Source: Samistivirus egole
Lineage: Duplodnaviria; Heunggongvirae; Uroviricota; Caudoviricetes
Length of the DNA: 64,000 bases
Virus record (IMG/VR): IMGVR_UViG_2974779775_000001
Coordinates: 60,108-124,107 of that record
Reading direction: 5' to 3' (one strand)
Part shown: positions 12,260 to 33,427 of the stretch, in pieces
How the letters are laid out: every line of letters begins with the position of its first letter
Position numbering within the stretch: the first letter of the stretch is position 1
Notes under the pieces: model-generated
Seen by the model: only the letters and a program-made list of their open reading frames with translations
What the model was told of the DNA's origin: nothing
Databases searched by the model: none
Position numbers and translations under genes: made by a program

Positions 12260-12865
12260 ATGACTGACGTAGATATTGTTCTTATCGTAGACCGCTCTGG
12301 TAGCATGTCTAGGATTAAGGACGAGGCAGAAGGTGCCCTCAACAGGTTCCTTGATGAGCAGCAGAATGTTGAGGGTGATGTTTTTGTCACCTACGTGCAG
12401 TTTGATGATGTATACGAGACCAAGTTTGAGAAGGTTGGTCTTGCCAATGCGGTTGGTACAGTAAGTATTCAGCCTCGTGGTATGACCGCCCTTCTTGACG
12501 CAATCGGTAAGACCGTAGTAAACTATGTACCACAGACCAAGAAGACAATCTATGTCATCATGACTGATGGCCTGGAGAACGCTTCTCAGGAGTGGACAGT
12601 AGAAACGGTCAACCAGCTCGTTACGGAATCAAAGCAGCACGGTGATGAATTCGTATACCTCGGTGCCAATCAGGACGCCATCGCAGTAGGCTCAAAGCTG
12701 GGAATCCCTGTGGCTTCCAGCCTAACGTTCGCTGCGGACAAGGCAGGACTTGACGCGGTATCAAGGAGTATGACAAGCTATGTAACAGCGACTCGCTCTG
12801 GACTCGCCTACGAGTTCACTGATGAGGACCGTAAGAACGCTACAGGCTTGACAGACAGCGAGTGA
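12260..12865 (+). CDS. vWA-domain protein
   Basis: MIDAS motif DRSGSMS at the N-terminus. Confidence 0.7.
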   Translation: MTDVDIVLIVDRSGSMSRIKDEAEGALNRFLDEQQNVEGDVFVTYVQFDDVYETKFEKVGLANAVGTVSIQPRGMTALLDAIGKTVVNYVPQTKKTIYVIMTDGLENASQEWTVETVNQLVTESKQHGDEFVYLGANQDAIAVGSKLGIPVASSLTFAADKAGLDAVSRSMTSYVTATRSGLAYEFTDEDRKNATGLTDSE

Positions 12866-12972
12866 GCTGTTAAAGTAGTAAATGTGGGTCGAACGAAAGT
12901 TGGTTATCTTTCAATAATGGTGAATACGCTCCGATAGGGGCTCTCCGACTTTCAAACACTTATCCACACAAT

Positions 12973-13043
12973 GCATCGGTAGTTTAATGGTAGAACGTCT
13001 GACTTCCAATCAGACAGCGCGGGTTCGATTCCCGCTCGGTGCT
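12973..13043 (+). tRNA. tRNA-Gly (anticodon TCC)
   Basis: Cloverleaf by eye: acceptor GCATCGG/TCGGTGC, D-loop TTTAATGGTA, anticodon loop CTTCCAA, T-arm GCGGG-TTCGATT-CCCGC. Confidence 0.7.
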
Positions 13044-13076
13044 CTTAGCCCATAAACAGCGCTTGCGCAGGGCACC

Positions 13077-14451: not shown

Positions 14452-14622
14452 ACCAACTTTTGGGTCGATTGAGACACGGTTATCTTACACAATGGATACT
14501 AGGTTCGATTCCTAGGGGTGCTGTAAAAGGTGCTCTGTAAAGTCATCTCAGATGTGTGTGGTAGGATGACATTAGGTACTACACTCTCTCCGTTCTCGCC
14601 ACTTACCTAAAGGATTTACATT

Positions 14623-15144
14623 ATGACGGTACTCCTAAGAACAATTCATGGTTCGCATCTGTACGGTCTCGCTCACGCAGGTTCGGATAAAGACATCTAC
14701 GAAGTGGTTGCTACAAAGCGAACCAAGCGGAAGCGCAATATTAAGCAAACCATCGTGAATGGAATTGACAAGACGGTCGTTGACCTCTCGACATTCATGC
14801 ACATGGTTGACGAATGCGTACCTCAAGCACTTGAAGCGCTATGGACGCCGGTACCAGATGTGGATGAAATCCACCAGTTCCGGACACAATATCGAGTGAA
14901 TCGCGCCAAGATGAAGGAAGTATACATTCGTACCGCTCTGAACTTCGCCAAGCATGAAGACGTAAAACGAAAGCGACATGCTATTCGTCTCCTTCTAAAC
15001 CTTGGTGAGGCCCTGGAATACGGTAAGTTCAATCCACGGCTGTCCACTATGGACAAGTTCATTCTCCGCTCATCACTCGGAGAGTCTGGAGCATATGAGG
15101 ATGTCTTTCTGGGCGTTCTCGATGAAGTGCAAAAGTGGGTCTAA
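14623..15144 (+). CDS. nucleotidyltransferase-fold (Pol beta-like NTase) protein
   Basis: Minimal NTase motif HGSHLYGLAHAGSDKDIYEVV (GS-x-D-x-D). Confidence 0.45.
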   Translation: MTVLLRTIHGSHLYGLAHAGSDKDIYEVVATKRTKRKRNIKQTIVNGIDKTVVDLSTFMHMVDECVPQALEALWTPVPDVDEIHQFRTQYRVNRAKMKEVYIRTALNFAKHEDVKRKRHAIRLLLNLGEALEYGKFNPRLSTMDKFILRSSLGESGAYEDVFLGVLDEVQKWV

Positions 15145-17372: not shown

Positions 17373-17446
17373 GCGCCAGTAGCATAACGGTTCAATGCAG
17401 TAGGCTTATATCCTACCGAGAGAAGGTTCAATTCCTTCCTGGCGTA
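17373..17446 (+). tRNA. tRNA-Ile (anticodon TAT)
   Basis: Acceptor GCGCCAG/CTGGCGT, D-arm GCAT-AACGGTTCA-ATGC, anticodon stem GTAGG/CCTAC with loop CTTATAT, T-arm GAAGG-TTCAATT-CCTTC. Confidence 0.65.
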
Positions 17447-17520
17447 CTTGTGGGTCGAAGATGATTGTTTATCTTCAAATCAGCGTGTTGGAGGTTCGAA
17501 TCCTTCCTGGGGACTTCATT
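17447..17520 (+). ncRNA. degenerate tRNA-like segment (T-arm only)
   Basis: T-arm GGAGG-TTCGAAT-CCTTC and a 6-bp hairpin with an 8-nt loop, with no acceptor or D-arm partner. It directly abuts tRNA-Ile. Confidence 0.3.
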
Positions 17521-17623
17521 GTCCTCGGTAACTCAATGGCAGAGTAGCTGACATTGCCCGAATGGGCTAGACGATTGTCACACCTTATCCACATTACAAA
17601 CAACTACTAACTAAGGAATAACC

Positions 17624-18378: not shown

Positions 18379-18383
18379 CTCCC

Positions 18384-18413
18384 GCCCGGTACTAATTGTG
18401 CCGGGCATTTTCT
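18384..18413 (+). terminator. rho-independent terminator
   Basis: GCCCGG-N11-CCGGGC followed by ATTTTCT. Confidence 0.5.
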
Positions 18414-18425
18414 ATAGGAGGAATC

Positions 18426-19027: not shown

Positions 19028-19064
19028 GGATGGCTTTTAGTGTTTTTGGTGATAAAATGAATGC

Positions 19065-21020: not shown

Positions 21021-21021
21021 G

Positions 21022-21050
21022 TTGACACCACCTTGAGCCCATGCTAGGGT
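21022..21050 (+). promoter_or_regulatory. SigA-type promoter
   Basis: TTGACA-N17-TAGGGT, followed by a TCTAGA-rich palindromic region. Confidence 0.45.
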
Positions 21051-21122
21051 AGTATTACACTAGAGAAAATAAAGAAAAAGATGTTTAGATATTCTCTAGA
21101 ATCTAGATAGAATATAGGGAAA

Positions 21123-21407
21123 ATGAGACTGTTTGAACTTCATAGAGACGTAGATTCATCTGGCGTCTCTGGAACAGGAGTGGTTGCACAGGGAGTCCAG
21201 TTTGACAATGGTCAGTGTTGTATGACATGGTTGACCTCCTGGAACTCAGTTGCTGTGTATCCAAACATTGAGACTCTTGAGAACATCCATGGACACAACG
21301 GTAACACTCGTGTAGTCTTTGTTGAAGGTCCGGTAGAGAAGACTGTCAGAGTTGCTGGCAAGGATGTTCCAGTCCAGTCAGTTGACAGGTTCTCCGAGAA
21401 CCGGTAG
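21123..21407 (+). CDS. hypothetical protein
   Basis: + strand ORF. Confidence 0.45.
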   Translation: MRLFELHRDVDSSGVSGTGVVAQGVQFDNGQCCMTWLTSWNSVAVYPNIETLENIHGHNGNTRVVFVEGPVEKTVRVAGKDVPVQSVDRFSENR

Positions 21408-21484
21408 AGTAGAACGTAGATGGTCGGCAAGCAGGTAAGAGAGGAACACAGGAGCTTGAGCCACAACCCCTCCGCCATCACCTT

Positions 21485-21560
21485 GCGTCTGTAGTATAGT
21501 CTGGTCTAATGCACCTGATTGTCAATCAGGAAATCGCGGGTTCAAATCCCGTCAGGCGCG
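21485..21560 (+). tRNA. tRNA-Asp (anticodon GTC)
   Basis: Acceptor GCGTCTG/CAGGCGC, anticodon stem CCTGA/TCAGG with loop TTGTCAA, T-arm GCGGG-TTCAAAT-CCCGT. Confidence 0.65.
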
Positions 21561-21561
21561 C

Positions 21562-21726
21562 ATGGCTATCAGATTCTGTCCATCATGTATGCAAAATGTC
21601 GTAACCATCGTGCAAAAGTCGAACTGCAAGCACTGTGGTACAGTTACTAAGTCGGTAGATGAGAAGCTTCCTCTACCAGACGAAGGCGAAGTCAACGACT
21701 TGACAGGTAAGCATCGTAAGGAGTAA
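21562..21726 (+). CDS. small zinc-ribbon protein
   Basis: 54-aa ORF with CPSC...CKHC. Confidence 0.35.
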   Translation: MAIRFCPSCMQNVVTIVQKSNCKHCGTVTKSVDEKLPLPDEGEVNDLTGKHRKE

Positions 21727-21727
21727 T

Positions 21728-21916
21728 ATGCCTAAGTACGAAATCAAGGGGACAATTCCCTTCGGCAATGATACTGAAATTGTCGATGATGTGTACGAAG
21801 CAAAGAACGAACTGGAAGCAAATCGGAAGTTCAATGCACGAGTGCAGGAGATTTCCAGGCAGACTGGTCGTAAGACGACAGGTAAGCCAAATGTAACAAT
21901 CACCCTCAAGCGGTAG
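21728..21916 (+). CDS. hypothetical protein
   Basis: + strand ORF. Confidence 0.4.
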   Translation: MPKYEIKGTIPFGNDTEIVDDVYEAKNELEANRKFNARVQEISRQTGRKTTGKPNVTITLKR

Positions 21917-21924
21917 GGTGTTAT

Positions 21925-21995
21925 CCCGGCGTGGTGTAATGGAAACACACTTCGTTGTCAGCGAAATGTCGAGGGTTCGATTCCTTTCGTCGGGA
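21925..21995 (+). tRNA. tRNA, anticodon GTC by eye (Asp-like), imperfect anticodon stem
   Basis: Acceptor CCCGGCG/CGTCGGG, D-arm GTGT-AATGGAA-ACAC, loop TTGTCAG, T-loop TTCGATT. Confidence 0.45.
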
Positions 21996-22000
21996 CAATA

Positions 22001-22039
22001 GGGTTCAAATTTGACAAAACATTTGAACCCATGTAGTGT
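22001..22039 (+). promoter_or_regulatory. promoter embedded in a perfect 10-bp inverted repeat
   Basis: GGGTTCAAAT-[TTGACAAAAC]-ATTTGAACCC, then TAGTGT 17 nt after TTGACA, directly upstream of the HNH gene. Confidence 0.4.
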
Positions 22040-22045
22040 AGTAGT

Positions 22046-22396
22046 ATGCCATTTTCCAATGAAGAGGAGCGAAAGGCGTACGCTAAGGCTCACTACGAAA
22101 AGAACAAACATGTCTACAAAGAACGTAATAATCGTTCACGGCAAAAGAGAGAAGACTTCGTCTTCGACCTTAAGAAAAACAATCCGTGTGCTGATTGTGG
22201 AGAGTTCTATCATCCATGTCAGATGCAGTATGACCACATAGCTGATGACAAAGAAGCTACTGTGAGTTGGCTAGTTCGCAATGGAACAATCAAGAAGATT
22301 GAAACTGAGATTGCCAAGTGTGAACTTGTTTGTGCCAACTGTCACGCATTGAGAACGTGGACCAGACATGAAAAGAATTGCGGGTCGAAAGAGTAA
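22046..22396 (+). CDS. HNH endonuclease
   Basis: CADCG...YDHI...N...CANCH. Confidence 0.75.
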   Translation: MPFSNEEERKAYAKAHYEKNKHVYKERNNRSRQKREDFVFDLKKNNPCADCGEFYHPCQMQYDHIADDKEATVSWLVRNGTIKKIETEIAKCELVCANCHALRTWTRHEKNCGSKE

Positions 22397-22451
22397 GTCG
22401 GTTATCTTCCTTTGAATAAGAAACAGGTAGGTTCGAATCCTACGTAGCCCA
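22382..22451 (+). ncRNA. tRNA-like element (uncertain)
   Basis: T-arm GTAGG-TTCGAAT-CCTAC and an anticodon-like loop CTTTGAA (TTG). The acceptor and D-arm are poor. Confidence 0.3.
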
Positions 22452-22494
22452 AGGCACGGGCGACTCCGACTCTCACCTATATATCCGCACTAGT

Positions 22495-22824
22495 ATGAAC
22501 ACTGAGCAAAGAATTGAAAAGCTGAAAGAACTCTGGAATGATGGCTGGTACCTTGAGGATGCCATCGATGAAATTGGTGACCTAGTAGAAGACGGTGAAT
22601 TCAAGCCGGTACTAGTGGATACCATTGAGGAGCATGAGTCTCGTTGGATGATTCATACTCTTGACATTGCTGAGCTTGACAAGGGCGTATACGTAGGTGT
22701 ACGTTGGGAGCGAGGCAAGACGGAGATGCAAGAGAATATCTTCGATGACAAGAACGTCTACCTTCTTGAAAGAGTCGAGAAGGTTGTCACTACAGTCGAT
22801 TGGAATGACAAGAAGAAGCTATGA
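22495..22824 (+). CDS. hypothetical protein
   Basis: + strand ORF. Confidence 0.45.
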   Translation: MNTEQRIEKLKELWNDGWYLEDAIDEIGDLVEDGEFKPVLVDTIEEHESRWMIHTLDIAELDKGVYVGVRWERGKTEMQENIFDDKNVYLLERVEKVVTTVDWNDKKKL

Positions 22825-23237
22825 AGAATTGGCTCGGTCATGAAATCGAGGTTGGCGCAGTAGTCTTTCGCGGCGGAAAGCAGGGCACATCGTCCTCTTT
22901 CCGCGTCGGCGTTGTAGACGACATTAACGAAGAAAAGCGAACGGCACGTGTAGAATGGCATTGGGTTCCTAGTAACAGAACTATCTGGGACAAGGATACC
23001 TATCAGTATTCTCACATGGATGACAATCGCTACTACGTTTCTGGTCCTGCAAAAGCCAGCACTCAGAGAACTCGCTATCACATCAACGACCTTGCGCGAC
23101 TTGATGACGGTATGCTAGAGTACCTAGAACGACGATACAGGCTCATTGAAGCCGCAATCCATTACAAGATTCGTGAAGACGACTTTGCTCAGTTTGAGCA
23201 TGACTTCGAGATGGGTCTTGTTCCTGAATACAACTAA
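22821..23237 (+). CDS. hypothetical protein
   Basis: + strand ORF whose start overlaps the upstream stop. Confidence 0.45.
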   Translation: MKNWLGHEIEVGAVVFRGGKQGTSSSFRVGVVDDINEEKRTARVEWHWVPSNRTIWDKDTYQYSHMDDNRYYVSGPAKASTQRTRYHINDLARLDDGMLEYLERRYRLIEAAIHYKIREDDFAQFEHDFEMGLVPEYN

Positions 23238-23262
23238 TTATCCTTAGAAAGGGTCGAAAGAA

Positions 23263-24915
23263 ATGTCAAACGCACTTAACACTGCTGCCAAGGGTCTGAA
23301 CAAGACTCCTCAGTCTCAGAAGGCTAAGGCAGGTCAGGTAAAGAACAACGCTGGTGGATTCGTCTTCCAGGTTTCTGACCAGGCTCGCCTAGAGCGATTC
23401 CTGATTCTGGGTGTAGACGGTGGCACTTATTACGTCAAGGAGAGTGCACACGCTCGTTCCAACGTACAGTTCCTCAACGAGATGATTGAGCGAGACGAAG
23501 CCTCTGTACTGAACACCATTGTGGACGTGTCTGTCAATGGTCGTGCATACAAGCAGTCTCCTGCCCTGTTCGCTCTAGCCTCTGTCATTGCCAATGGTAA
23601 GAACAAGCAGGCGGTCAAGGCGGTATTCAATCGTGTCGTTCGTACAGGCACTCACCTGTATGAGCTTCTGAACTACCTTACTTCAATGAACGTTGGGTGG
23701 GGTCGTTCAAAGCGAGAGATTGTTGCTTCTTGGTTCGACCGAGATGCTGACAAGCTGGCTTATCAGGCGGTCAAGTACCGTTCTCGTAAGTTCGGTGAGC
23801 AGACTTGGACACTCCGAGACGTAATGCGTCTTTCCCACCCACGAGATGTGAACACGTCTGTTGCAGATTTTGTTCTCGGCAAGCCTCACGATGCTACCGA
23901 TGACCTTCGGGTTATCGAGGGCTTCAAGAAGATGCAGAGGGCTCAGTCTGTCGAGGACGTTCACAGCGTTCTCCGTGAGTACGAGATGCTTTCATGGGAG
24001 ACAATCCCAACTCAGTTCCTCAAGGACGTGAGTGTGTGGAAGCGAATCTTCGCTAACGGACAGCTCCGTGGCCAGGCTCTTGTTCGAAACATCACTCGCC
24101 TCGCGCGAATTGGTGCTTTCCAGGACATGCGCTTTGCTGCTGCGTATGCGGGACAGCTCACAAATCAGGAGATGATTGTACAGACTCGTCTGCATCCAAT
24201 CAACTTCCTGAATGCGTCTGTCGTGTACAACGAAGGCCAGATGAAGACCGTAAGGGACCGCTGGGGCTTCGAGCGCGAGGAGCGTGTAAAGGACTGGACA
24301 ACTGAGAGTGTTATTGCGGATGCCCTCAATGAGGGATTCCACAAGGCATTCAAGGCTGTCGAGCCTGCCGGTAAGCGAACGATGCTGGCTCTGGACGTAT
24401 CAGGCTCCATGAGTGCAAAGGCTAACGGTCTCGACCTTAGCTGTGCTCAGGTTTCTGCTGCAATGTCTATGGCCATCGCTCGTACCGAGCCTGCTCACAT
24501 CATCCGTGGATTCACGTCCAATGGATATGGCTGGTCTGGTCGCAACAGTGACCTTACCGACCTTGGTATCAGCGCTAAGACAGACCTTGCTACGGCAATG
24601 CGTAATGTCCAGCGTCACAACTGGGGTGGTACGGACTGTAGCCTTCCAATGCGTTGGGCTCTGGACCGTGGAATTGAAGTAGACACGTTCGTCATTATCA
24701 CCGATAATGACACGTGGGCTGGTGAAATCCACCCATTCCAGGCGCTCAAGGAGTACCGTAAGAAGACTGGCATTCCAGCTCGTCTGGCAGTTCTGGGAGT
24801 TCAGGCAACTGAATTCACCATCGCTGACCCAAGCGACGCAGGAATGATGGACTTCGTAGGGTTTGACAGCAATGCACCTCGTGTGCTCGCTGACTTCTCC
24901 GCAGGTCGCATCTGA
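23263..24915 (+). CDS. rsr: Ro60 (TROVE domain) ortholog with C-terminal vWA domain
   Basis: TROVE-like N-terminus (GGFVFQVSDQARLERFLILGVDGGTYY) and a C-terminal MIDAS motif (LALDVSGSMS). The length of 550 aa matches the bacterial Rsr architecture. Confidence 0.7.
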   Translation: MSNALNTAAKGLNKTPQSQKAKAGQVKNNAGGFVFQVSDQARLERFLILGVDGGTYYVKESAHARSNVQFLNEMIERDEASVLNTIVDVSVNGRAYKQSPALFALASVIANGKNKQAVKAVFNRVVRTGTHLYELLNYLTSMNVGWGRSKREIVASWFDRDADKLAYQAVKYRSRKFGEQTWTLRDVMRLSHPRDVNTSVADFVLGKPHDATDDLRVIEGFKKMQRAQSVEDVHSVLREYEMLSWETIPTQFLKDVSVWKRIFANGQLRGQALVRNITRLARIGAFQDMRFAAAYAGQLTNQEMIVQTRLHPINFLNASVVYNEGQMKTVRDRWGFEREERVKDWTTESVIADALNEGFHKAFKAVEPAGKRTMLALDVSGSMSAKANGLDLSCAQVSAAMSMAIARTEPAHIIRGFTSNGYGWSGRNSDLTDLGISAKTDLATAMRNVQRHNWGGTDCSLPMRWALDRGIEVDTFVIITDNDTWAGEIHPFQALKEYRKKTGIPARLAVLGVQATEFTIADPSDAGMMDFVGFDSNAPRVLADFSAGRI

Positions 24916-24917
24916 GC

Positions 24918-24943
24918 AAATCCCCTCTTCGGAGGGGATTTTT
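24918..24943 (+). terminator. rho-independent terminator
   Basis: AAATCCCCTC-TTCG-GAGGGGATTT followed by TTT. Confidence 0.6.
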
Positions 24944-25114
24944 GCTATACTGAATAGATGATTAGTAAAGAAGAACGTAAACAACTCAAACTCGCAAGGT
25001 CTAAGGCAGAACTAGTAAGAACTGTGACAAGTGTTTTTCAGATGATTATTGCATCTGCTACACTCATCATCCTAGTCTATGTGAACTTCATGCGTTGACA
25101 CAGCTCCTACGAAG

Positions 25115-25312
25115 GTGTACTCTCGATACATGAAGGAAGACGAGCCTGGCGTTTCAATCCTCAGTCTATTGAGGATGTTCAGGCGTGCAAAGAAAGTTCG
25201 GCCGGTAGTGGTAGAGTCCACCTGTGGCCATTGTAAGACTAAGTACGATATCCATAAGGGCCATATGTGTCCCTATATCAGAGACCTCTATGCAAAGATG
25301 GAGAAACCATGA
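25115..25312 (+). CDS. small zinc-binding protein
   Basis: CGHC...HMC. Confidence 0.4.
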   Translation: MYSRYMKEDEPGVSILSLLRMFRRAKKVRPVVVESTCGHCKTKYDIHKGHMCPYIRDLYAKMEKP

Positions 25313-25515
25313 GTTACAAGGCAGAGACCTTCACTCGTACTGGCAATGGCAAGATGGGCAACAGCATTAAGGCTCTGGCCGCCAGTAACCACTTGAAGGT
25401 AAACAGTTTCAGTGCGGTTGGTTGGGTTCTCAAGACCATCACCATTACCGTTTATGGTCACGTTGATGACATCGCTCGTTTCGAGAGTCAGCTCCCGGAA
25501 GGTGTTCAGTCTTGA
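25310..25515 (+). CDS. hypothetical protein
   Basis: ATG preceded by GATGGAGAAACC. Confidence 0.4.
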
Positions 25516-25892
25516 GCAATAGCTTTTATCATGCTCGTAGCTCTGCACGGAAATGGGGAGGTGAGCCAGAGGACTACATTGCCATTCACGAGTGGCTTGA
25601 TGCATCCAAGGCTCACTTCGGAGACGCCCGGCACAGAGCGTTGCGTCATCACACAGAAGGATGCTGGGAGGCCGAACGAGTCTTTGGCCTCACCATCACA
25701 GTAAAGAAGAAAAGGACAGGCGTAGAAGTACGAGTGCCTGTTCGTGAAATTGCTGAGCAGCATGTCTTTGAAGACTTGGGATGGCTTCCAAGTCTGTCAG
25801 ACTGGCTTGGTAACATGGAACTCAAGGCATGGATGGGTGGTAAGATAAAGACCACAGTCTCTCGTGCCGATACATTGAAGGGAAGCAAGTGA
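25512..25892 (+). CDS. hypothetical protein
   Basis: + strand ORF. Confidence 0.45.
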   Translation: MSNSFYHARSSARKWGGEPEDYIAIHEWLDASKAHFGDARHRALRHHTEGCWEAERVFGLTITVKKKRTGVEVRVPVREIAEQHVFEDLGWLPSLSDWLGNMELKAWMGGKIKTTVSRADTLKGSK

Positions 25893-26413
25893 CAAATCTA
25901 TATGGTCGTACTCTGCAAGGCGAGCCGCAGGATGACGACAGTTGGCCTGAGCAGGACGATACGTCTATCCTGATTGCTGGTATTGACAAGCTGCTTGACA
26001 TGGAGCACGTTGCTTCTGTACGCTGGGAGCAGTACACACCGAGCTTTAATGACGGTGAGCCTTGTCGATTCAGCATCCATCGTGTTGCGGTAAGTCTCAA
26101 GGGATTTGCTGTTCCAGCGGATGGATTTGAATCAGCCGAAGACCGGTGGTACGATGAAGACGAAGAGGTCTTCTTCGATGAGTATGAGCTTTACGAGTAT
26201 GCTGTCAACGAAGATGGTAGTAAGAACTGGGACGAGCACGTATATGAGATTCAAGGTATTCCTACCAAGGAAATCAAGGCTGCTCTGAGCGAGTTCGAGA
26301 AGCTTCTTGACAATGGTGCTCACTATGCATGGCTCATGACATCATTTGGAGACCCGGCAGAGGTGACGGCAACATCTGATACCTTTGCTGTAGAACGTTG
26401 TGAGCACGAGTAA
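25889..26413 (+). CDS. acidic hypothetical protein
   Basis: + strand ORF rich in Asp and Glu. Confidence 0.45.
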   Translation: MTNLYGRTLQGEPQDDDSWPEQDDTSILIAGIDKLLDMEHVASVRWEQYTPSFNDGEPCRFSIHRVAVSLKGFAVPADGFESAEDRWYDEDEEVFFDEYELYEYAVNEDGSKNWDEHVYEIQGIPTKEIKAALSEFEKLLDNGAHYAWLMTSFGDPAEVTATSDTFAVERCEHE

Positions 26414-26421
26414 GGAGCTAT

Positions 26422-26607
26422 ATGTCTTTGGAACACATTGACGCCGAACGTATCCTTGACCTCATCTCCGGAACCATTGATGGTGGATGGAATGATGGTA
26501 TCGAGGCATTCGTAGGTGCGTCCAATGATGGAGAGTTTCTGAATGTCGAAGTTGAAGATGACGACGGCACGAAGAAGCGCTTCACCCTGACTATAGAAGA
26601 ACTATAG
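26422..26607 (+). CDS. hypothetical protein
   Basis: + strand ORF. Confidence 0.4.
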   Translation: MSLEHIDAERILDLISGTIDGGWNDGIEAFVGASNDGEFLNVEVEDDDGTKKRFTLTIEEL

Positions 26608-26662
26608 CCAAAGCTTCTCATAATCATTCGTCAGATATAATGATTGTGAGAGGAGGGTAAAG

Positions 26663-26944
26663 ATGGCTTATTACCCAATTAACCAGTTCTTCTACGACTC
26701 AGAGACTAACAACATCATCGTTCAGTTCGCTGTATATACCGAAAAGACTTATGAAACAGCAGAGATGGACGACCCATATGATGTAGTTGAGGCAGAACTC
26801 TTCCTGGATGCAGGTAAGTTCAAGATTGGTGAGTACCGTCCAGCAGCACTTGATGGTAGTGTAACTCAGGAGTTCATCGGTCGTGACCTAGGTCAGGCAC
26901 CTAACATAACTCCACCCAATCCAGTTCCAGAAGAACCAGCTTGA
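26663..26944 (+). CDS. hypothetical protein
   Basis: RBS GAGGAGGG precedes the ORF. Confidence 0.45.
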   Translation: MAYYPINQFFYDSETNNIIVQFAVYTEKTYETAEMDDPYDVVEAELFLDAGKFKIGEYRPAALDGSVTQEFIGRDLGQAPNITPPNPVPEEPA

Positions 26945-26969
26945 CAGACTAGTCTAGTCACGCTAGACT
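26941..26969 (+). promoter_or_regulatory. SigA-type promoter with a 10-bp palindrome in the spacer
   Basis: TTGACA-N17-TAGACT. The spacer contains AGACTAGTCT. Confidence 0.4.
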
Positions 26970-27011
26970 AACTTATACAGCGCAGGACGGGGCGCTCACA
27001 AATCCGTTCAC

Positions 27012-27082
27012 GCCCCTATAGTCTAAGGGTAGGATGCAAGATTCTCAATCTTGTGGTCGGAGTTCAATTCTCCGTAGGGGTA
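27012..27082 (+). tRNA. tRNA-Glu (anticodon CTC)
   Basis: Acceptor GCCCCTA/TAGGGGT, anticodon stem CAAGA/TCTTG with loop TTCTCAA, T-arm CGGAG-TTCAATT-CTCCG. Confidence 0.65.
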
Positions 27083-27083
27083 C

Positions 27084-27335
27084 GTGCCAGCTAAGATACC
27101 AACTCAAATAGAAGCAAGAATAGTAGTAGCCATCCTAACCGGAATCATTGGCTGCATATTTGCCAGCTTCTTGATGGTTGGATGTATAACTGAAAGCAAT
27201 GAAACAAGCAAGATGAAGGCTTGTGTAGCTAAAAGTATGGAATGGGTAAACGCGCCCGGTGGTCCTGAGTGCAGGAAGCCGCTTGACAGACTCCCACAGC
27301 CAAGCTACAGTAGTAGTAACGAAGACAAGCAGTGA
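27084..27335 (+). CDS. putative lipoprotein
   Basis: Signal peptide with a lipobox (LMVGC). Confidence 0.45.
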   Translation: MPAKIPTQIEARIVVAILTGIIGCIFASFLMVGCITESNETSKMKACVAKSMEWVNAPGGPECRKPLDRLPQPSYSSSNEDKQ

Positions 27336-27339
27336 ACAT

Positions 27340-27413
27340 GCCCCGTTGGTCTAGCGGTTAGGATACCGGACTTTCAATCCGTGTGAACGTCGGTTCGAAT
27401 CCGACACGGGGTA
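27340..27413 (+). tRNA. tRNA-Glu (anticodon TTC)
   Basis: Acceptor GCCCCGT/ACGGGGT, D-loop TCTAGCGGTTAGG, loop CTTTCAA, T-arm GTCGG-TTCGAAT-CCGAC. Confidence 0.6.
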
Positions 27414-27446
27414 CTCCAAAAAAAACAAACCGAAAGGTACAAGAAA

Positions 27447-27650
27447 ATGGCTTGTCGCATTGCAGTGGTTCTCAAGGGTCAAGAGCCTGGTACTCCGATT
27501 ACCGGCCTCAAGACGCGAGACGAGTATCGTGAGGCTTTCACCAAGGCAATTCAGGAGAAGGCATCAACCATCACTGTGACTGACCAGGATGGTGACTACT
27601 ACATTCTGGTGGTTGACCAGATTCAAGCGTTTGCTGTAGAATCTATCTAA
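27447..27650 (+). CDS. hypothetical protein
   Basis: + strand ORF. Confidence 0.4.
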   Translation: MACRIAVVLKGQEPGTPITGLKTRDEYREAFTKAIQEKASTITVTDQDGDYYILVVDQIQAFAVESI

Positions 27651-27673
27651 GCAAGCAGGCCGGAAAGGCCCAA

Positions 27674-27744
27674 GCCCGGTTAGCTCAATGGGAGAGCGGC
27701 GCGTTTACACCGCGTATACGGGGGTTCGATTCCCTCACTGGGTA
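27674..27744 (+). tRNA. tRNA-Val (anticodon TAC)
   Basis: Acceptor GCCCGGT/ACTGGGT, D-arm GCTC-AATGGGA-GAGC, anticodon stem GCGCG/CGCGT with loop TTTACAC, T-loop TTCGATT. Confidence 0.65.
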
Positions 27745-27748
27745 CGCT

Positions 27749-27846
27749 GGAGAGTTGAAAGTCTTGAAAAGTTGGTCACTCAGTAGAGATTGTTTTACAT
27801 GCAGGTTTAACCAACCTCCATGCCGGGTTCGAATCCGGACTCTCCG
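27749..27846 (+). ncRNA. 98-nt tRNA-like RNA with non-tRNA interior
   Basis: Perfect 7-bp acceptor GGAGAGT/ACTCTCC and a TTCGAAT T-loop. The interior holds an 8-bp hairpin CATGCAGG/CCTCCATG and a long-range TTGGT/ACCAA pairing. No canonical D or anticodon arm is visible. Confidence 0.4.
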
Positions 27847-27855
27847 TTGACTTAT

Positions 27856-27932
27856 GGGTTTGATTGGTATAAGGTTACTGAAAGCCGACAATGGACCGGT
27901 AACTGTAGAGGGTTCGAATCCCTCCAAATCCA
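27856..27932 (+). ncRNA. atypical 77-nt tRNA-like element
   Basis: Acceptor GGGTTTG/CAAATCC and T-arm GAGGG-TTCGAAT-CCCTC. The 45-nt interior is not foldable into standard arms by eye. Confidence 0.3.
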
Positions 27933-28004
27933 CTTGGTGATAAAGCTCCCCAAGCTGATAGTCCATATCAGCCGGACACTTGGCGGTGACGCCCTTCACC
28001 TTAT

Positions 28005-28079
28005 GCGCCGTTGACGGGAACTGGCATACCTAGTTGACTTAGAATCAACTGCTTGGGAGTTCGACTCTCCCACGGCGTA
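28005..28079 (+). tRNA. tRNA with anticodon TAG (Leu codon CUA) but a short variable arm
   Basis: Acceptor GCGCCGT/ACGGCGT, anticodon stem AGTTGA/TCAACT with loop CTTAGAA, a 4-nt variable loop, T-arm GGGAG-TTCGACT-CTCCC, A73. Confidence 0.5.
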
Positions 28080-28106
28080 CTCCATAACTACAAAGACAAG
28101 GATGCA

Positions 28107-28208
28107 CATGGCAGCCTGCCCAAAGGGTGGTAAGCATGAATGGAAAATGTGGTCTGGAAAGTATCGTTGTCGCAAGTGTGGTGAAACAAGTAAGATACAG
28201 CCTACATA
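28107..28208 (+). CDS. small zinc-ribbon peptide
   Basis: About 33 aa: MHMAACPKGGKHEWKMWSGKYRCRKCGE... Confidence 0.3.
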
Positions 28209-28218
28209 GGTTGTTTAT

Positions 28219-28292
28219 GCGTCGGTAGCCCAATGGCAGGAGGCACCAGTCTTAGGAACTGGACAGTGTGAGTTCGAGTCTCACCCGGCGTA
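28219..28292 (+). tRNA. tRNA with anticodon TAG (Leu-like), short variable arm
   Basis: Acceptor GCGTCGG/CCGGCGT, anticodon stem CCAGT/ACTGG with loop CTTAGGA, T-arm GTGAG-TTCGAGT-CTCAC, A73. Confidence 0.5.
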
Positions 28293-28345
28293 CTTTGATG
28301 GTAAACGCGATGCCATCGAATGCACACAGGGTCGCTCCCAGTGTG

Positions 28346-28470
28346 AGGAACGTAGTTTAATGGTAAAACCGTGAAATGCGCTGTCGAAATATGCGGTGGT
28401 GCCTCATTGGAGGCTCGTCCGTGAGTAGATATCAGAGTAGCAGTTGTCGGTTCGATTCCGACCGTTCCGC
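28346..28470 (+). ncRNA. 125-nt tRNA-like RNA with a ~55-nt non-tRNA insertion
   Basis: Acceptor AGGAACG/CGTTCCG (6 bp), a canonical D-arm GTTT-AATGGTA-AAAC, and T-arm GTCGG-TTCGATT-CCGAC. The interior contains direct repeats CCGTGA and no anticodon arm. Confidence 0.4.
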
Positions 28471-28613
28471 TAGCCTGCGCTAGATGCAGGAATGTAAGTC
28501 GGCAAGGGAGTGTACAATCCCAAACCGCATTTCTCAACGGCCTTGCAAGGGGCGTCAAAGCAACAGGGTGAGAGTGTCTTGGTTGTTCCGACTCATAACT
28601 GGAACCTCCACAA

Positions 28614-28684
28614 TCCGTAGTGGTGAAATGGTATCACATGGCCTTGCCAAGGCTAAAGCGCGAGTTCGATTCTCGTCTACGGGA
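28614..28684 (+). tRNA. tRNA-Gly (anticodon GCC)
   Basis: Acceptor TCCGTAG/CTACGGG, D-arm GTGA-AATGGTA-TCAC, anticodon stem TGGCC/GGCTA with loop TTGCCAA, T-loop TTCGATT. Confidence 0.6.
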
Positions 28685-28699
28685 CTTGGGAGCTGACAT

Positions 28700-28785
28700 G
28701 GAACTGGCTGAGTCATGACCAGCACGCAATGGTGCGATAGCGGCCGATAAACCGTCAATTCTGGGTTCGAATCCCGGCAGTTCCC
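28700..28785 (+). ncRNA. 86-nt tRNA-like RNA with non-tRNA interior
   Basis: Perfect acceptor GGAACTG/CAGTTCC and T-arm CTGGG-TTCGAAT-CCCGG. The interior has a GTCATGAC palindrome and a CGCA-ATGG-TGCG hairpin, with no anticodon arm. Confidence 0.4.
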
Positions 28786-28791
28786 CCTAAT

Positions 28792-28864
28792 GCCCTGGTA
28801 GCGTAGTGGATGACGCGGGTGCCTTCTAAGCATTTATAGGCAGGTTCGATTCCTGTCCAGGGTA
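28792..28864 (+). tRNA. tRNA-Arg (anticodon TCT)
   Basis: Acceptor GCCCTGG/CCAGGGT, D-arm GCGT-AGTGGATG-ACGC, anticodon stem GGTGC/GCATT with loop CTTCTAA, T-arm GCAGG-TTCGATT-CCTGT. Confidence 0.65.
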
Positions 28865-28947
28865 CGTAATGAAAATGCTCGGTAGAAAAGTCTGGAGAGG
28901 CCAGACGTTCGAAGACTCTCCAGTCAAAAATAAAATTTGGAGGCGTC

Positions 28948-31597: not shown

Positions 31598-32467
31598 ATG
31601 ACATATCTTGTTATTGCAGGTCTCCTCCTGCTCGTTCTGCTCGTCGCAGTCGCTTTCAGCGCCGTTACTAAGCAGAAGGGTGGATACCTCGTTGCTGTTG
31701 GTGTCGGTCTGCTGCTTGCTGTGTTTACTCTCTTCAACTCAGTAACCTCTGTTGGAGCGCGTAACGTCGGCATTCAGACGGCCTTCGGTCGATACCAGGG
31801 AAACCTTGACAATGGCCTCCAGGTCATTGCTCCTTGGTCAGAGCATGAGGACTTCTCTACTCAGGTTCAGTATCTTGACCTTGATGGTGAGAAGTGGGAT
31901 GAAGGTGCAACGGTTACCTTTGATGGTGGCGGTCGTGGTGTGGTTTACGCTACTCCTCGCTGGCGCATCAATGAGGGTATGGCTGGTGAACTGTGGAAGA
32001 AGTACAAGAACTTCGACAACGTTCGTGACCAGCTCGTTAAGTCTTCTGCCAAGGACTCATTCCGTGCAGTTCTGACGGAGTACACTCCTAACGATGCTCG
32101 TACTAAGGTTCGTGAGGTTGCTGCTAAGGTTCAGAGTGACCTGGCTTCTAGTCTCAAGGATGATGGAATCATCATTGATTCCATCAGCATCAAGGACATT
32201 AAGCTGGACGACCGTACCCAGTCTTCACTTGACAAGATTGTTCAGGCCAACAACGACATTGAGCGTTCAAAGTCTGAGCAGGAGCGAGCGAAGATTGACG
32301 CTGAGACTGCCAAGATTCGTGAGAAGACTGGTGCTCTCAAGCCCGAGGCTCTACAGCGTTACTGCCTTGAGGTTGTCAACAACTGGGACGTGAAGAAGAA
32401 CGGCAACCTGCCTGCTGGCTTCAACTGCAATGGGTCTAACGTTCCCTTCACGGTCACCAACAAGTAA
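31598..32467 (+). CDS. SPFH/Band-7 (stomatin/prohibitin-like) membrane protein
   Basis: Two N-terminal transmembrane helices, an SPFH core (VGIQTAFGRYQ...LQVIAPW) and a C-terminal coiled coil. Confidence 0.65.
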   Translation: MTYLVIAGLLLLVLLVAVAFSAVTKQKGGYLVAVGVGLLLAVFTLFNSVTSVGARNVGIQTAFGRYQGNLDNGLQVIAPWSEHEDFSTQVQYLDLDGEKWDEGATVTFDGGGRGVVYATPRWRINEGMAGELWKKYKNFDNVRDQLVKSSAKDSFRAVLTEYTPNDARTKVREVAAKVQSDLASSLKDDGIIIDSISIKDIKLDDRTQSSLDKIVQANNDIERSKSEQERAKIDAETAKIREKTGALKPEALQRYCLEVVNNWDVKKNGNLPAGFNCNGSNVPFTVTNK

Positions 32468-32509
32468 TAACGCAATCGCAGTGAGATGACTTCAATCTGC
32501 TCTCGCCTG

Positions 32510-33423: not shown

Positions 33424-33427
33424 CTTC

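What the first reader, a model, noticed from the sequence alone, without database searches (positions are those of the whole stretch)
23263..28900. Phage-encoded Ro60 (Rsr) ortholog with no annotated Y RNA, and candidate tRNA-like partner RNAs 3-5 kb downstream
The 550-aa protein combines a TROVE-like N-terminus (FVFQVSDQARLERFLILGVDGGTYY) with a C-terminal vWA MIDAS motif, which is the bacterial Ro60/Rsr architecture. Bacterial and some phage rsr genes are accompanied by Y RNAs (YrlA) that carry a tRNA-like module, by established knowledge of the family. No such RNA sits directly next to the gene, but several abnormal tRNA-like RNAs lie in the adjacent tRNA island.
Basis: partly seen in the sequence, partly recalled or inferred. 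Interest (0 to 1): 0.7.

Follow-up and report, generated by a model that had tools for sequence, protein, structure and literature searches.

The report
Phage Ro60 with four Y RNAs
This Streptomyces phage carries an already-annotated Ro60 RNA-binding protein, and upstream of it (not downstream, as first proposed) lie four unannotated small RNA genes with the hallmarks of Ro60's partner "Y RNAs", one of them a full tRNA mimic.

Summary
The window is Streptomyces phage EGole (MK494112.1). ORF 23263-24915 is a true Ro60/Rsr ortholog: it has the TROVE and Ro60-vWA domains and a MIDAS motif, and matches D. radiodurans Rsr at E 1e-95. GenBank already annotates it "Ro-like RNA binding protein" here and in more than 100 related phages.

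Four unannotated Y-RNA-like genes lie upstream on the same strand, in gaps of the tRNA array:
- A: 12883-12968
- B: 14459-14611
- C: 17449-17593
- D: 22379-22489, 0.77 kb from rsr

All four share a terminal stem (NNNGGGU/AUCCNNN), a CGAA loop (the published Ro-binding motif GNCGAAN0-1G in A, C and D), a second stem and UUAUCUU. C has the complete YrlA tRNA-like domain (T, acceptor-like and D arms).

Covariation is strong: 14 of 16 basal pairs show compensatory changes. A model built from C orthologs finds exactly these four in the window. It also finds the published mycobacteriophage ET08 YrlA, and elements upstream of rsr in 27 viral and 7 bacterial loci, always on the rsr strand.

The downstream tRNA-like RNAs (27.7-28.8 kb) are real conserved structures but lack the Ro-binding module. 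Verdict: new members of a known kind. Ro binding and function are inferred, not shown.

The parts
23263..24915 (+). rsr / Ro60 ortholog (EGole gp128, 550 aa): TROVE HEAT-repeat ring plus Ro60-type vWA domain with MIDAS DVSGS at residue 378
   Evidence: Annotated 'Ro-like RNA binding protein' in MK494112.1.
22379..22489 (+). Y RNA D (111 nt). S1 is UGCGGGU/AUCCGCA, with 5' loop CGAAAG (GUCGAAAG = GNCGAAN1G). S2 has a 2-nt bulge and is followed by UUAUCUUCC. The interior holds a T-arm (GUAGGUUCGAAUCCUAC) and a D-arm-like hairpin (GCCC..GGGC). It ends 773 nt upstream of rsr. Its first 18 nt overlap the end of the gp125 ORF.
   Evidence: Regex hit. R1 gives 25.9 bits, E 3e-4 to 4e-5, full model length. 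The MFE fold gives S1+S2. Orthologs are in Daubenski, Jay2Jay, StarPlatinum and Sollertia. BLAST finds it in 50 Streptomyces phage records, mostly with no feature annotated.
17449..17593 (+). Y RNA C (145 nt), YrlA-like. S1 is UGUGGGU/AUCCACA, with GUCGAAG (GNCGAAN0G). S2 is GAUGAUUGU/ACGAUUGUC, followed by UUAUCUUC. It has a 4-5 bp anticodon-stem-like helix, a T arm (GGAGGUUCGAAUCCUUCC), a closed acceptor-like stem-loop and a D arm (AACUCAAUGGCAGAGU). It starts 2 nt after the tRNA-Ile 3' end.
   Evidence: Rfam YrlA gives 32.9 bits over the full-length model. RNAalifold on 10 orthologs predicts 36 pairs, 11 of them with compensatory changes. R1 gives 136.7 bits, by construction.
14459..14611 (+). 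Y RNA B (153 nt). S1 is UUUGGGU/ACCUAAA, with 5' loop CGAUU (one base off the GNCGAA motif). S2 is GAGA(C)ACGG/CCGUUCUC, followed by UUAUCUUAC. The interior holds a T arm (CUAGGUUCGAUUCCUAG) and two more hairpins. The 3' strand of S1 abuts the ribosome-binding site of gp107 (RlaP NTase).
   Evidence: RNAalifold on 5 orthologs predicts 44 pairs, 6 of them compensatory. R1 gives 26.6 bits, E 2e-4 to 3e-5. BLAST finds it in 83 Streptomyces phage records, with no feature annotated in those listed.
12883..12968 (+). Y RNA A (86 nt, no tRNA-like arm). S1 is UGUGGGU/AUCCACA, with GUCGAACG (GNCGAAN1G). S2 is GAAAGUUGG/CCGACUUUC (9/9 pairs), followed by UUAUCUUUC. The interior holds two small hairpins. 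It ends 4 nt before tRNA-Gly(tcc).
   Evidence: MFE z-score is -2.7. RNAalifold on 5 orthologs recovers S1 and S2. R1 gives 31.6 bits, E 9e-6. BLAST finds it in 44 records, with no feature annotated in those listed.
12848..12876 (+). Sigma-70-type promoter (TTGACA-17-TGnTAAAGT). Its -10 element ends 6 nt before the 5' end of Y RNA A.
   Evidence: Promoter scan. Both hexamers are conserved and the spacer varies in 5 phages.
17373..17447 (+). tRNA-Ile(tat), immediately 5' of Y RNA C. It is probably co-transcribed, so tRNA 3' processing would create the Y RNA 5' end. A promoter-like site lies at 17312-17340.
   Evidence: The same tRNA-Ile to YrlA-like order holds in the BE2 phages.
12973..13044 (+). 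tRNA-Gly(tcc), 4 nt 3' of Y RNA A. RNase P cleavage at its 5' end would free the Y RNA 3' end.
14623..15144 (+). gp107, an RlaP-family (RNA ligase-associating Pol-beta) nucleotidyltransferase directly downstream of Y RNA B. Listed as RNA-repair context.
   Evidence: Pfam PF10127, E 8.4e-6, 26.1 bits against a cutoff of 23. The family's role is taken from PMC7824862.
43251..44351 (+). gp197, a T4 Rnl1-type RNA ligase. Listed as RNA-repair context.
   Evidence: Pfam PF09511, E 2.7e-14.

Best explanation
The phage encodes a Ro60/Rsr ring protein together with a set of four cognate Y RNAs (A-D), all on the rsr strand and upstream of it, inside the tRNA gene array.

Each RNA has the same basal module:
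- a 7-bp terminal stem (S1) formed by its 5' and 3' ends
- an internal loop carrying CGAA, the 5'-strand motif GNCGAAN0-1G that has been proposed as the Ro60/Rsr recognition site
- a second stem of about 9 bp (S2)
- a conserved UUAUCUU

The distal part differs between the four. C has a complete tRNA mimic (YrlA type: T arm, closed acceptor-like stem, D arm). D has a T arm plus a D-like hairpin. B has a T arm plus two other hairpins. A has only two small hairpins.

Proposed production: the RNAs are made as parts of tRNA polycistrons. A has its own promoter and ends at the RNase P site of tRNA-Gly. C begins 2 nt after a tRNA 3' end, B begins just after an annotated tRNA-like gene, and D does so in relatives.

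Proposed function, by analogy with D. radiodurans, S. Typhimurium and Thermus phage phiLo: the basal module docks on the phage Ro60, and the variable module tethers it to partner enzymes. Host PNPase is the precedent; tRNA-recognising or repair enzymes are plausible for the tRNA-like modules. This would give the phage an RNA quality-control, repair or decay particle during infection, alongside its 43 tRNAs, tmRNA, RlaP nucleotidyltransferase and Rnl1 ligase.

Shown here: the sequences, the conserved and covarying structure, homology to YrlA, and the genomic association with rsr. Inferred: expression, processing, Ro60 binding, partner identity and biological role.
For: 1. Protein identity: TROVE plus vWA_Ro60, and 2NVO Rsr at E 9.5e-96.

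2. Four copies of GGGTCG-N6-20-TTATCT on the + strand and none on the - strand, against 0.13 expected. Each copy has a 3' complement that forms S1 and S2. Single-sequence MFE folds of A, B and D give S1 + loop + S2.

3. De novo RNAalifold on 10 orthologs of C recovers S1, S2, the anticodon-like stem and the T, AS and D arms. 11 of 36 pairs show compensatory changes. S1 and S2 are also recovered for A and B.

4. On 39 family members, S1+S2 are 93.9% paired, against 69% in shuffles and 34-47% when slid. 14 of 16 pairs have double changes, and 0 of 500 shuffles reach the observed values.

5. The GNCGAAN0-1G motif of Chen et al. 2014 (PMC4201824) is present in A, C and D.

6. Rfam YrlA hits C over the full model length at E 0.0028 for the window. 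The published ET08 YrlA scores about the same, 37.4 bits.

7. Model R1, built only from C orthologs, finds A, B and D at E 1e-4 to 1e-6 with exact ends, and nothing else in 12-44 kb with filters off. It finds the region 160 nt upstream of ET08 Ro (46 bits) and 7 elements in Rhodococcus phage Trina. It gives 53 of 53 hits on the Ro strand in 27 IMG/VR Ro loci, with about 47 upstream of Ro, and 13 of 13 on the rsr strand in 7 bacterial loci.

8. In BE2 phages the C ortholog lies 1.8 kb upstream of Ro, directly after tRNA-Ile.

9. A conserved promoter abuts A. B, C and D abut tRNA 3' ends.

10. Precedent: phage phiLo Ro60 binds two upstream Y-like RNAs that carry a CGAA bulge, and forms a complex with host PNPase (PMC12135203).
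Against: - There are no expression, end-mapping or binding data for any of the four RNAs.
- Rfam's YrlA gathering score is not reached (32.9 against 69), and Rfam detects only C.
- B deviates from the GNCGAA motif (GUCGAUUG).
- A, B and C lie 5.7-10.3 kb from rsr, beyond the 4-kb window used by Chen et al. 2014.
- Some BE1 phages that encode Ro (Daubenski, StarPlatinum, Sollertia) lack C altogether. The tRNA-like member is therefore dispensable.
- The 39-sequence alignment used for pair counts was fitted to the model, which biases the counts towards pairing.
- R1 E-values are rough because calibration was short.
- The z-scores of single-sequence folds for B and D are unremarkable (-0.4 and -1.2).
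Confidence: 0.8

Rival explanations
1. One reading: Ro60's partner RNAs are the abnormal tRNA-like RNAs 4.5-5.5 kb downstream in the tRNA island (27749-27846, 27856-27935, 28346-28470, 28700-28784).
For: They exist and lie on the rsr strand. At least two are conserved structured RNAs with compensatory changes: 4 of 22 pairs for 27856-27935 and 6 of 23 pairs for 28346-28470. They are tRNA-like, as the YrlA effector domain is.
Against: - None has the GNCGAA motif, the S1/S2 basal module or UUAUCUU.
- R1 with filters off gives only T-arm fragments there, at E >= 0.13.
- Rfam YrlA and Y_RNA give nothing there.
- Their ends form ordinary acceptor stems with free termini. 27856-27935 even carries G3:U70 and aligns to the tmRNA tRNA-like domain. 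YrlA has a closed acceptor-like stem and docks on Ro through a separate terminal helix.
- In 27 viral and 7 bacterial loci the Y-like hits sit upstream of rsr.
Confidence: 0.05
2. The four elements are real structured RNAs but are unrelated to Ro60. They could be processing or insulator modules of tRNA polycistrons, or small regulatory RNAs (B, for example, could control translation of the RlaP gene whose ribosome-binding site it abuts).
For: All four abut tRNA genes or a promoter. A and B are 8.7-10.3 kb from rsr. The 3' strand of B's S1 adjoins the gp107 Shine-Dalgarno sequence in all 5 orthologs. There are no binding data.
Against: The shared module is the one that defines YrlA/Y RNAs: a terminal helix plus a GNCGAA 5' strand. 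A model of it finds the published ET08 YrlA. In 34 independent Ro/rsr loci from actinophages to Poribacteria, it finds elements immediately upstream of rsr and always on its strand. Such an association is not expected for generic tRNA-operon spacers.
Confidence: 0.08
3. Only element C is a Y RNA. A, B and D are decayed duplicates (pseudogenes) of it without function.
For: A, B and D score far lower with R1 (26-32 bits against 137). They lack part or all of the tRNA-like domain.
Against: - A, B and D are each conserved across subclusters with compensatory changes.
- They are retained in phages that have lost C (Daubenski, StarPlatinum, Sollertia).
- A has its own conserved promoter.
- Salmonella YrlB and the phiLo Yrl RNAs show that Y RNAs without a tRNA-like domain are functional Ro ligands.
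Confidence: 0.05

Closest known systems
YrlA (Y RNA-like A; Rfam RF02553; Chen et al. 2014, RNA 20:1715, PMC4201824), including the mycobacteriophage ET08 YrlA
   Same: [quoted passage not shown] The model built from C finds the ET08 region next to Ro (46 bits).
   Different: C is below the Rfam gathering score, as is ET08's own YrlA. In EGole it lies 5.7 kb from rsr, although the BE2 relatives have it at 1.8 kb. It is fused head-to-tail to tRNA-Ile inside a 43-tRNA array. It is one of four paralogs rather than a single gene.
YrlB of S. Typhimurium and Yrl1/Yrl2 of Thermus phage phiLo (PMC12135203): Y RNAs without a full tRNA-like domain
   Same: Elements A, B and D keep the stem / CGAA loop / stem Ro-binding architecture but lack a complete tRNA mimic. 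Several Y RNAs sit upstream of one Ro gene, as in phiLo (two copies).
   Different: B and D retain a T arm. Binding to Ro60 and PNPase has been shown for phiLo and not for EGole.
Metazoan Y RNAs (Rfam RF00019)
   Same: The general plan is the same: a terminal helix bearing the Ro60 site (GGUCCGA in vertebrates, GGGUCGAA here), an internal loop and a second stem. From memory, human Y1, Y4 and Y5 also have GUUAUC just after the upper stem. I did not test this resemblance.
   Different: There is no RF00019 hit at E <= 10. These RNAs are made from bacterial-type promoters and by tRNA processing rather than by Pol III, and they carry tRNA-like modules.
Ro60/Rsr proteins (D. radiodurans Rsr 2NVO; X. 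laevis and human Ro60; phage phiLo Ro60)
   Same: Full-length homology, TROVE plus vWA with MIDAS, and a similar length.
   Different: 39-44% identity or less to the non-Streptomyces phage orthologs. Nothing unusual was detected in the domain architecture.

Membership tests
Ro60/Rsr protein | TROVE (HEAT-repeat ring) domain | tested here: met
   Pfam PF05731, E 2.7e-31, residues 26-319.
Ro60/Rsr protein | C-terminal Ro60-type vWA domain with a MIDAS motif | tested here: met
   Pfam PF25045, E 7.1e-59, residues 372-545. DVSGS at residue 378.
Ro60/Rsr protein | Full-length similarity to experimentally characterised Ro60/Rsr | tested here: met
   2NVO Rsr at E 9.5e-96 over residues 8-549. 9NEN and 1YVP Ro60 at E about 1e-78.
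Ro60/Rsr protein | Binds Y RNA and misfolded RNA | not testable with these tools
   Needs EMSA or RIP.
YrlA / bacterial Y RNA | GNCGAAN0-1G motif near the 5' end (Chen 2014) | tested here: met
   A has GTCGAACG at 12888, C has GTCGAAG at 17454 and D has GTCGAAAG at 22384. B has GTCGATTG, one mismatch.
YrlA / bacterial Y RNA | Helix formed by the 5' and 3' ends that carries the motif, supported by covariation | tested here: met
   S1 is 99% paired and 5 of its 6 pairs show double changes. S1+S2 together show 14 of 16. The helix is also predicted de novo.
YrlA / bacterial Y RNA | tRNA-like domain: a T arm, a closed acceptor-like stem-loop and a D arm, in that order | tested here: met
   Met for C only, with compensatory changes in the T, AS and D stems and an Rfam YrlA alignment. 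B and D have a T arm only, plus a D-like hairpin in D. A has none. A, B and D therefore resemble YrlB-type Y RNAs rather than YrlA.
YrlA / bacterial Y RNA | Encoded within about 4 kb of Ro60 on the same strand | tested here: inconclusive
   The strand is the same for all four. D is 0.77 kb away (met). C, B and A are 5.7, 8.7 and 10.3 kb away in EGole (not met). C orthologs in BE2 phages are 1.8 kb away.
YrlA / bacterial Y RNA | Reaches the Rfam RF02553 gathering score (69 bits) | tested here: not met
   C scores 32.9 bits; the others give no hit. As a control, the published ET08 YrlA scores only 37.4 bits and Trina 23.7. The threshold therefore does not discriminate actinophage members.
YrlA / bacterial Y RNA | Expressed as a discrete small RNA, bound by Rsr, carrying tRNA-type modifications | not testable with these tools
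   Needs RNA-seq or Northern blots, RIP and modification mapping.
Metazoan Y RNA (RF00019) | Match to the covariance model | tested here: not met
   No hit at E <= 10 in the window.

The most novel reading that the evidence does not exclude
Large actinobacteriophages carry a panel of Y RNA paralogs: 3-5 in Streptomyces BE phages and about 7 in Rhodococcus phage Trina. The paralogs share one Ro60-docking module but have graded effector modules: a full tRNA mimic, T plus D arms, a T arm only, or none. They are produced from the tRNA array by the tRNA-processing machinery. Each paralog would couple the phage Ro60 ring to a different partner (host PNPase, RlaP nucleotidyltransferase, Rnl1 ligase, tRNA-modifying enzymes, or host anticodon nucleases as decoys). 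Together they would form an integrated tRNA surveillance, repair or anti-defence system.
Probability: 0.25. Interest if true: 0.7.

Novelty: new member of a known kind. Interest (0 to 1): 0.5.

Why it matters
Ro60 with its Y RNAs is a conserved RNA-surveillance particle and a major human autoantigen, and its function in bacteria and phages is still poorly understood. The Ro gene is annotated in more than 100 sequenced Streptomyces BE-cluster phages, but its RNA partners are not. The loci are blank, or occasionally mislabelled as tRNA.

Pinning down four candidate Y RNAs with exact ends, a shared docking module and different distal modules gives a tractable system for three questions: what the variable Y RNA modules recruit, why a lytic phage brings its own Ro RNP along with 43 tRNAs, a tmRNA, an RlaP nucleotidyltransferase and an Rnl1 ligase, and how Y RNAs are made from tRNA operons.

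There is also a practical point. The Rfam YrlA threshold misses the actinophage members, including the published ET08 RNA. A broader model would improve annotation.

Tried and rejected
- Rfam at gathering thresholds over the whole window gave only tRNAs and the tmRNA, with no Y RNA family.
- Rfam at E <= 10 gave one YrlA hit (element C) and a chance partial hit at 33395-33451 on a tRNA junction. It gave no RF00019 hit.
- The CM alignment of the basal stem was wrong. It paired AUUGUUU with AGACGAU and missed the true 5' end. Comparison with the BE2 phages corrected this.
- The MFE fold of 17448-17590 suggested local hairpins (GAAGAU/AUCUUC and GCCC/GGGC) instead of S2. I rejected these because S2 covaries across orthologs, whereas the GCCC hairpin is absent from BE2.
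- The automatic assignment of 3' ends mispaired several elements with T-loop ATCC. I fixed this by hand and with R1.
- A loose motif scan (GNCG..WTATC) gave 15 + strand and 9 - strand hits against about 58 expected. It was uninformative, so only the strict pattern was used.
- I looked for C in Daubenski, Enygma, Mildred21, Tomas and Naboo after tRNA-Ile. It is absent there: a CDS follows within about 27 nt.
- RNAalifold on the five D orthologs recovered S1 but not S2, because of bulges and divergence.
- Literature searches found no paper on Y RNAs in Streptomyces or actinobacteriophages. The supplementary phage table of Chen 2014 and the 2020 Annual Review were not available.
- The promoter-like site at 22349-22378, just before D, ends too close to D's first base to be its promoter. 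I treat it as chance.
- I did not search the part of the EGole genome outside the window. I did not run structure prediction on the protein, because sequence homology was decisive.

Full report
**Identity of the window and of the protein**

The window is 100% identical to Streptomyces phage EGole (MK494112.1; Stanwilliamsviridae, cluster BE1). Window position equals record position minus 60107.

ORF 23263-24915 (+, 550 aa) is gp128, already annotated "Ro-like RNA binding protein".
- It matches Pfam TROVE (E 2.7e-31) and the Ro60-specific vWA domain (E 7.1e-59).
- It carries the MIDAS motif DVSGS at residue 378.
- It aligns end to end with solved Ro60/Rsr proteins: D. radiodurans Rsr 2NVO at E 9.5e-96, and human and Xenopus Ro60 at about 1e-78.
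- tblastn finds orthologs in 360 phage records: 212 Mycobacterium, 115 Streptomyces, plus Gordonia, Microbacterium, Rhodococcus and others. Nearly all of the records listed carry the same annotation.

The observation about the protein is correct, but it is not new.

At Rfam gathering thresholds the window yields only tRNAs and a tmRNA. At E <= 10 there is one YrlA (RF02553) match, at 17464-17578 (+). It scores 32.9 bits against a gathering score of 69, with E 0.0028 for the whole window and 1.8e-5 locally, and it spans the whole model. It lies in an unannotated gap just 3' of tRNA-Ile(tat), 5.7 kb upstream of rsr.

**From one weak hit to a family**

The CM alignment matched the tRNA-like core well: T arm GGAGGUUCGAAUCCUUCC, a closed stem-loop, and D arm AACUCAAUGGCAGAGU. 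It matched the basal stem poorly. Just 5' of the aligned stretch the sequence reads GGGUCGAAG. This fits the motif GNCGAAN0-1G, which Chen et al. 2014 (PMC4201824) found near the 5' end of every YrlA/YrlB and related to the Ro60-contacted GGUCCGA of vertebrate Y RNAs.

BLAST showed the element in about 52 Streptomyces phage records. These include the distant BE2 phages (Faust, TunaTartare, Sham, Annadreamy, Blueeyedbeauty). There it again follows a tRNA-Ile and lies only about 1.8 kb upstream of the Ro gene on the same strand.

Reading those loci revealed tandem neighbours with the same 5' signature (NNGGGUCG...GGUUAUCUU) and a 3' end ...AUAUCCNN complementary to the 5' end. Scanning the window for GGGTCG-N6-20-TTATCT gives four hits on the + strand and none on the - strand, against 0.13 expected. 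The four elements are:
- A: 12883-12968
- B: 14459-14611
- C: 17449-17593, the YrlA hit with its true ends
- D: 22379-22489

**Anatomy**

Every element has the following parts:
- **S1**, a 7-bp helix between the extreme 5' and 3' ends. It reads UGUGGGU/AUCCACA in A and C, UUUGGGU/ACCUAAA in B, and UGCGGGU/AUCCGCA in D.
- **A 5' internal-loop strand** beginning CGA(A). The opposite strand is 6-8 nt long.
- **S2**, about 9 bp. A and C pair 9/9. B has one bulged C and D has a 2-nt bulge.
- **UUAUCUU**, which corresponds to the "YUAY" noted by Chen et al.
- **A variable interior.**

The interiors differ.
- C contains a 4-5-bp anticodon-stem-like helix, a T arm, an acceptor-like stem closed by a loop, and a D arm. 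This is the permuted-tRNA topology that defines YrlA.
- D has a T arm followed directly by a D-arm-like hairpin.
- B has a T arm and two further hairpins.
- A has two small hairpins only.

Single-sequence MFE folds of A, B and D independently return S1 / loop / S2 closing a multibranch interior.

**Evidence that the structure is selected**

- RNAalifold on ten orthologs of C (five BE1, five BE2) predicts S1, S2, the anticodon-like stem, and the T, AS and D arms de novo. 11 of 36 pairs show compensatory double changes.
- Five-sequence sets of A and B also recover S1 and S2, with compensatory changes. D recovers S1 only, because bulges and divergence spoil the alignment.
- A covariance model (R1) built only from the C orthologs finds A, B and D in the window. 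The hits span the full model length and have exactly the ends I had defined: 31.6, 26.6 and 25.9 bits, with E 9e-6 to 3e-4.
- With filters off over 12-44 kb, R1 finds nothing else apart from T-arm fragments at tRNA junctions.
- On the 39 family members that R1 finds in 11 loci, the 16 S1/S2 pairs are 93.9% paired. Shuffles give 69% and slid registers give 34-47%. 14 of 16 pairs show double changes, and none of 500 shuffles reaches the observed values. One caveat applies: this alignment was fitted to the model.
- The invariant positions are the unpaired ones (CG after S1, GGUUAUC after S2). S1 itself switches between GGGU/AUCC, GAAC/GUUC, GAGC/GCUC, GGGC/GCCC and AGGC/GUCU across genera.

**Link to Ro60**

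R1 hits the stretch 160 nt upstream of the Ro gene of mycobacteriophage ET08 at 46 bits. ET08 is a phage whose YrlA is published (Chen 2014, Fig. 1D). R1 also hits seven elements in the 4 kb upstream of Ro in Rhodococcus phage Trina, at least one of which overlaps a feature mis-annotated "tRNA-OTHER".

In 27 IMG/VR contigs fetched through their Ro genes, all 53 hits are on the Ro strand. About 47 lie upstream of Ro, and there are up to six per locus. This includes loci whose Ro is only 35-41% identical. In seven bacterial MAG rsr loci (Poribacteria, Chthonomonas, Fimbriimonadia and a "cyanobacterial" bin), all 13 hits are on the rsr strand, and the full-length ones lie within about 0.8 kb upstream of rsr. 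The module is therefore the general YrlA/Y RNA docking module.

Failure to reach the Rfam threshold is not informative. The published ET08 YrlA scores only 37.4 bits (partial), Trina's best scores 23.7, and no YrlA is reported at gathering level in four Ro loci.

**How the RNAs are probably made (inference)**

- **A.** It is preceded by TTGACA-17-TGnTAAAGT. Both hexamers are conserved in five phages while the spacer varies, and the -10 element ends 6 nt before A's first base. A ends 4 nt before tRNA-Gly(tcc), so RNase P would define its 3' end.
- **C.** It starts 2 nt after tRNA-Ile.
- **B.** It starts just after a tRNA-Pro or a tRNA-like gene.
- **D.** It starts 2-3 nt after tRNA-Asp in Daubenski, Jay2Jay and StarPlatinum. 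In EGole an HNH-like ORF (gp125) has been inserted between tRNA-Asp and D, and in Sollertia a LAGLIDADG endonuclease sits at the same place.
- Promoter-like TTGACA sites precede the tRNA-Pro...B unit and the tRNA-Ile-C unit.

**How it probably works (inference from known systems)**

In D. radiodurans and S. Typhimurium, Y RNA tethers Rsr to PNPase (PMC4201824). In Thermus phage phiLo, two Y-like RNAs upstream of the Ro gene have a CGAA bulge between two stems. They bind the phage Ro60 and form ternary complexes with host PNPase (PMC12135203).

By homology, A-D should dock on gp128 through S1 and the CGAA loop, and present different distal modules to different partners. The neighbourhood fits an RNA-repair or surveillance role:
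- gp197 is a T4 Rnl1-type RNA ligase (roles taken from PMC7824862).
- The window also holds 42 tRNA genes and a tmRNA by ARAGORN.

Nothing here demonstrates expression, binding or function.

There are real tRNA-like RNAs in unannotated gaps at 27749-27846, 27856-27935, 28346-28470 and 28700-28784.
- 27856-27935 aligns to the two ends of the tmRNA model (36.5 bits). It has a 7-bp acceptor stem with G3:U70, an A discriminator and a T arm, and it is conserved in four relatives with 4 compensatory pairs.
- 28346-28470 is a tRNA-like RNA with a 72-nt insert in place of the anticodon arm. It scores 35.9 bits on Rfam tRNA and has 6 compensatory pairs.

These are interesting, but they have ordinary free acceptor ends and no Ro-docking module, and R1 and Rfam do not link them to Y RNAs. 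I rate them as Ro partners at about 5%.

**Novelty**

Phage Ro60 genes with Y RNAs are known. [quoted passage not shown] Thermus phage phiLo followed in 2025. I found no report of Y RNAs in Streptomyces or other BE-type phages.

BLAST shows the four elements in 44-83 Streptomyces phage records. In the records listed, no feature is annotated under them, apart from one labelled tRNA-Ser.

This is a set of new members of a known kind. Three features are worth noting: multiplicity (4 here, 5 in BE2, about 7 in Trina), graded loss of the tRNA-like domain among paralogs, and embedding in tRNA operons. The tRNA-like member C is absent from some Ro-encoding relatives, so it is not essential to the system.

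Noticed in passing
window 27856-27935 (+), with a similar neighbour at 27749-27846: An unannotated 80-nt RNA that looks like a tmRNA tRNA-like domain without the mRNA part. It has a 7-bp acceptor stem with G3:U70, an A discriminator, a T arm and one long hairpin. It aligns to both ends of Rfam tmRNA (36.5 bits). It is conserved in Daubenski, Jay2Jay, StarPlatinum and Sollertia, with 4 compensatory pairs. The phage also has a full tmRNA at 38496-38764. It could be an alanine-accepting minihelix or an SmpB/AlaRS decoy. The neighbour at 27749-27846 also folds as an acceptor stem plus T arm, but is conserved only in Jay2Jay.
   Followed up: partly
window 28346-28470 (+): An unannotated tRNA-like RNA with normal acceptor, D and T arms but a conserved 72-nt insert in place of the anticodon arm. 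It scores 35.9 bits on Rfam tRNA in a local search. It is conserved in four relatives, with 6 compensatory pairs. The insert is too short for a group I intron. Its nature is unknown.
   Followed up: partly
window 28700-28784 (+): An unannotated 85-nt tRNA-like fold (7-bp acceptor stem, T arm, three short hairpins) with a weak mascRNA-like Rfam match (26 bits). BLAST found no conservation beyond the T arm in the loci held.
   Followed up: partly
window 14379-14455 (+): The GenBank record annotates a tRNA-Gly (GGA codon) here (gene 106). Neither ARAGORN nor Rfam tRNA reports it. The sequence folds as an odd tRNA-like RNA and sits directly 5' of Y RNA B. It is present in Jay2Jay but absent in Daubenski, StarPlatinum and Sollertia, where B follows tRNA-Pro.
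   Followed up: partly
window 14605-14630 (+): The 3' strand of Y RNA B's terminal stem (ACCUAAA) runs straight into the Shine-Dalgarno sequence and start codon of the RlaP nucleotidyltransferase gene (AAAGGAUUUACAUUAUG). This holds in all five orthologs examined. It may couple Y RNA folding or processing to translation of an RNA-repair enzyme.
   Followed up: no
window 22046-22396 (+); L019 10439-10906: A Cys/His-rich ORF (gp125) that looks HNH-like by eye, although it has no Pfam hit. It is inserted between tRNA-Asp and Y RNA D in EGole, and its last 18 nt overlap the Y RNA. Sollertia has a LAGLIDADG endonuclease at the same junction, while Daubenski and Jay2Jay have none. This may be a hotspot for homing endonucleases.
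   Followed up: partly
L021 (Rhodococcus phage Trina MF668286.1) 2258-5946: Seven R1 hits (22-64 bits) in the 4 kb upstream of the Trina Ro gene. At least one overlaps a 209-nt feature annotated as pseudo 'tRNA-OTHER'. In Trina the Ro gene is followed directly by a band-7-like membrane protein gene. EGole also has one, at 31599-32468.
   Followed up: partly
L017 10913-11101 and L019 10912-11101: StarPlatinum and Sollertia carry two tandem Y-like elements at the D position. The second has a GGGCCGAA variant of the 5' motif, paired with GCCC at the 3' end. This is a covarying change in S1.
   Followed up: partly
window 12000-25200 (+): There are ten sigma-70-like sites on the + strand scoring 10 of 12, nine of them with an exact TTGACA -35 element. 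In all, 26 sites were found against 13 expected. Several lie just upstream of tRNA or Y RNA clusters, which suggests many short transcription units in the tRNA island.
   Followed up: partly
window 27084-27335 (+): An 83-aa ORF with a hydrophobic N-terminal segment lies in the unannotated gap between the two tRNA-Glu genes. Daubenski annotates a small CDS at the corresponding place.
   Followed up: no
window 25512-25892 (+): gp132, 0.6 kb downstream of rsr, matches Pfam DUF6915 strongly (E 2e-44). Its function is unknown, and I did not examine whether it is linked to Ro.
   Followed up: no
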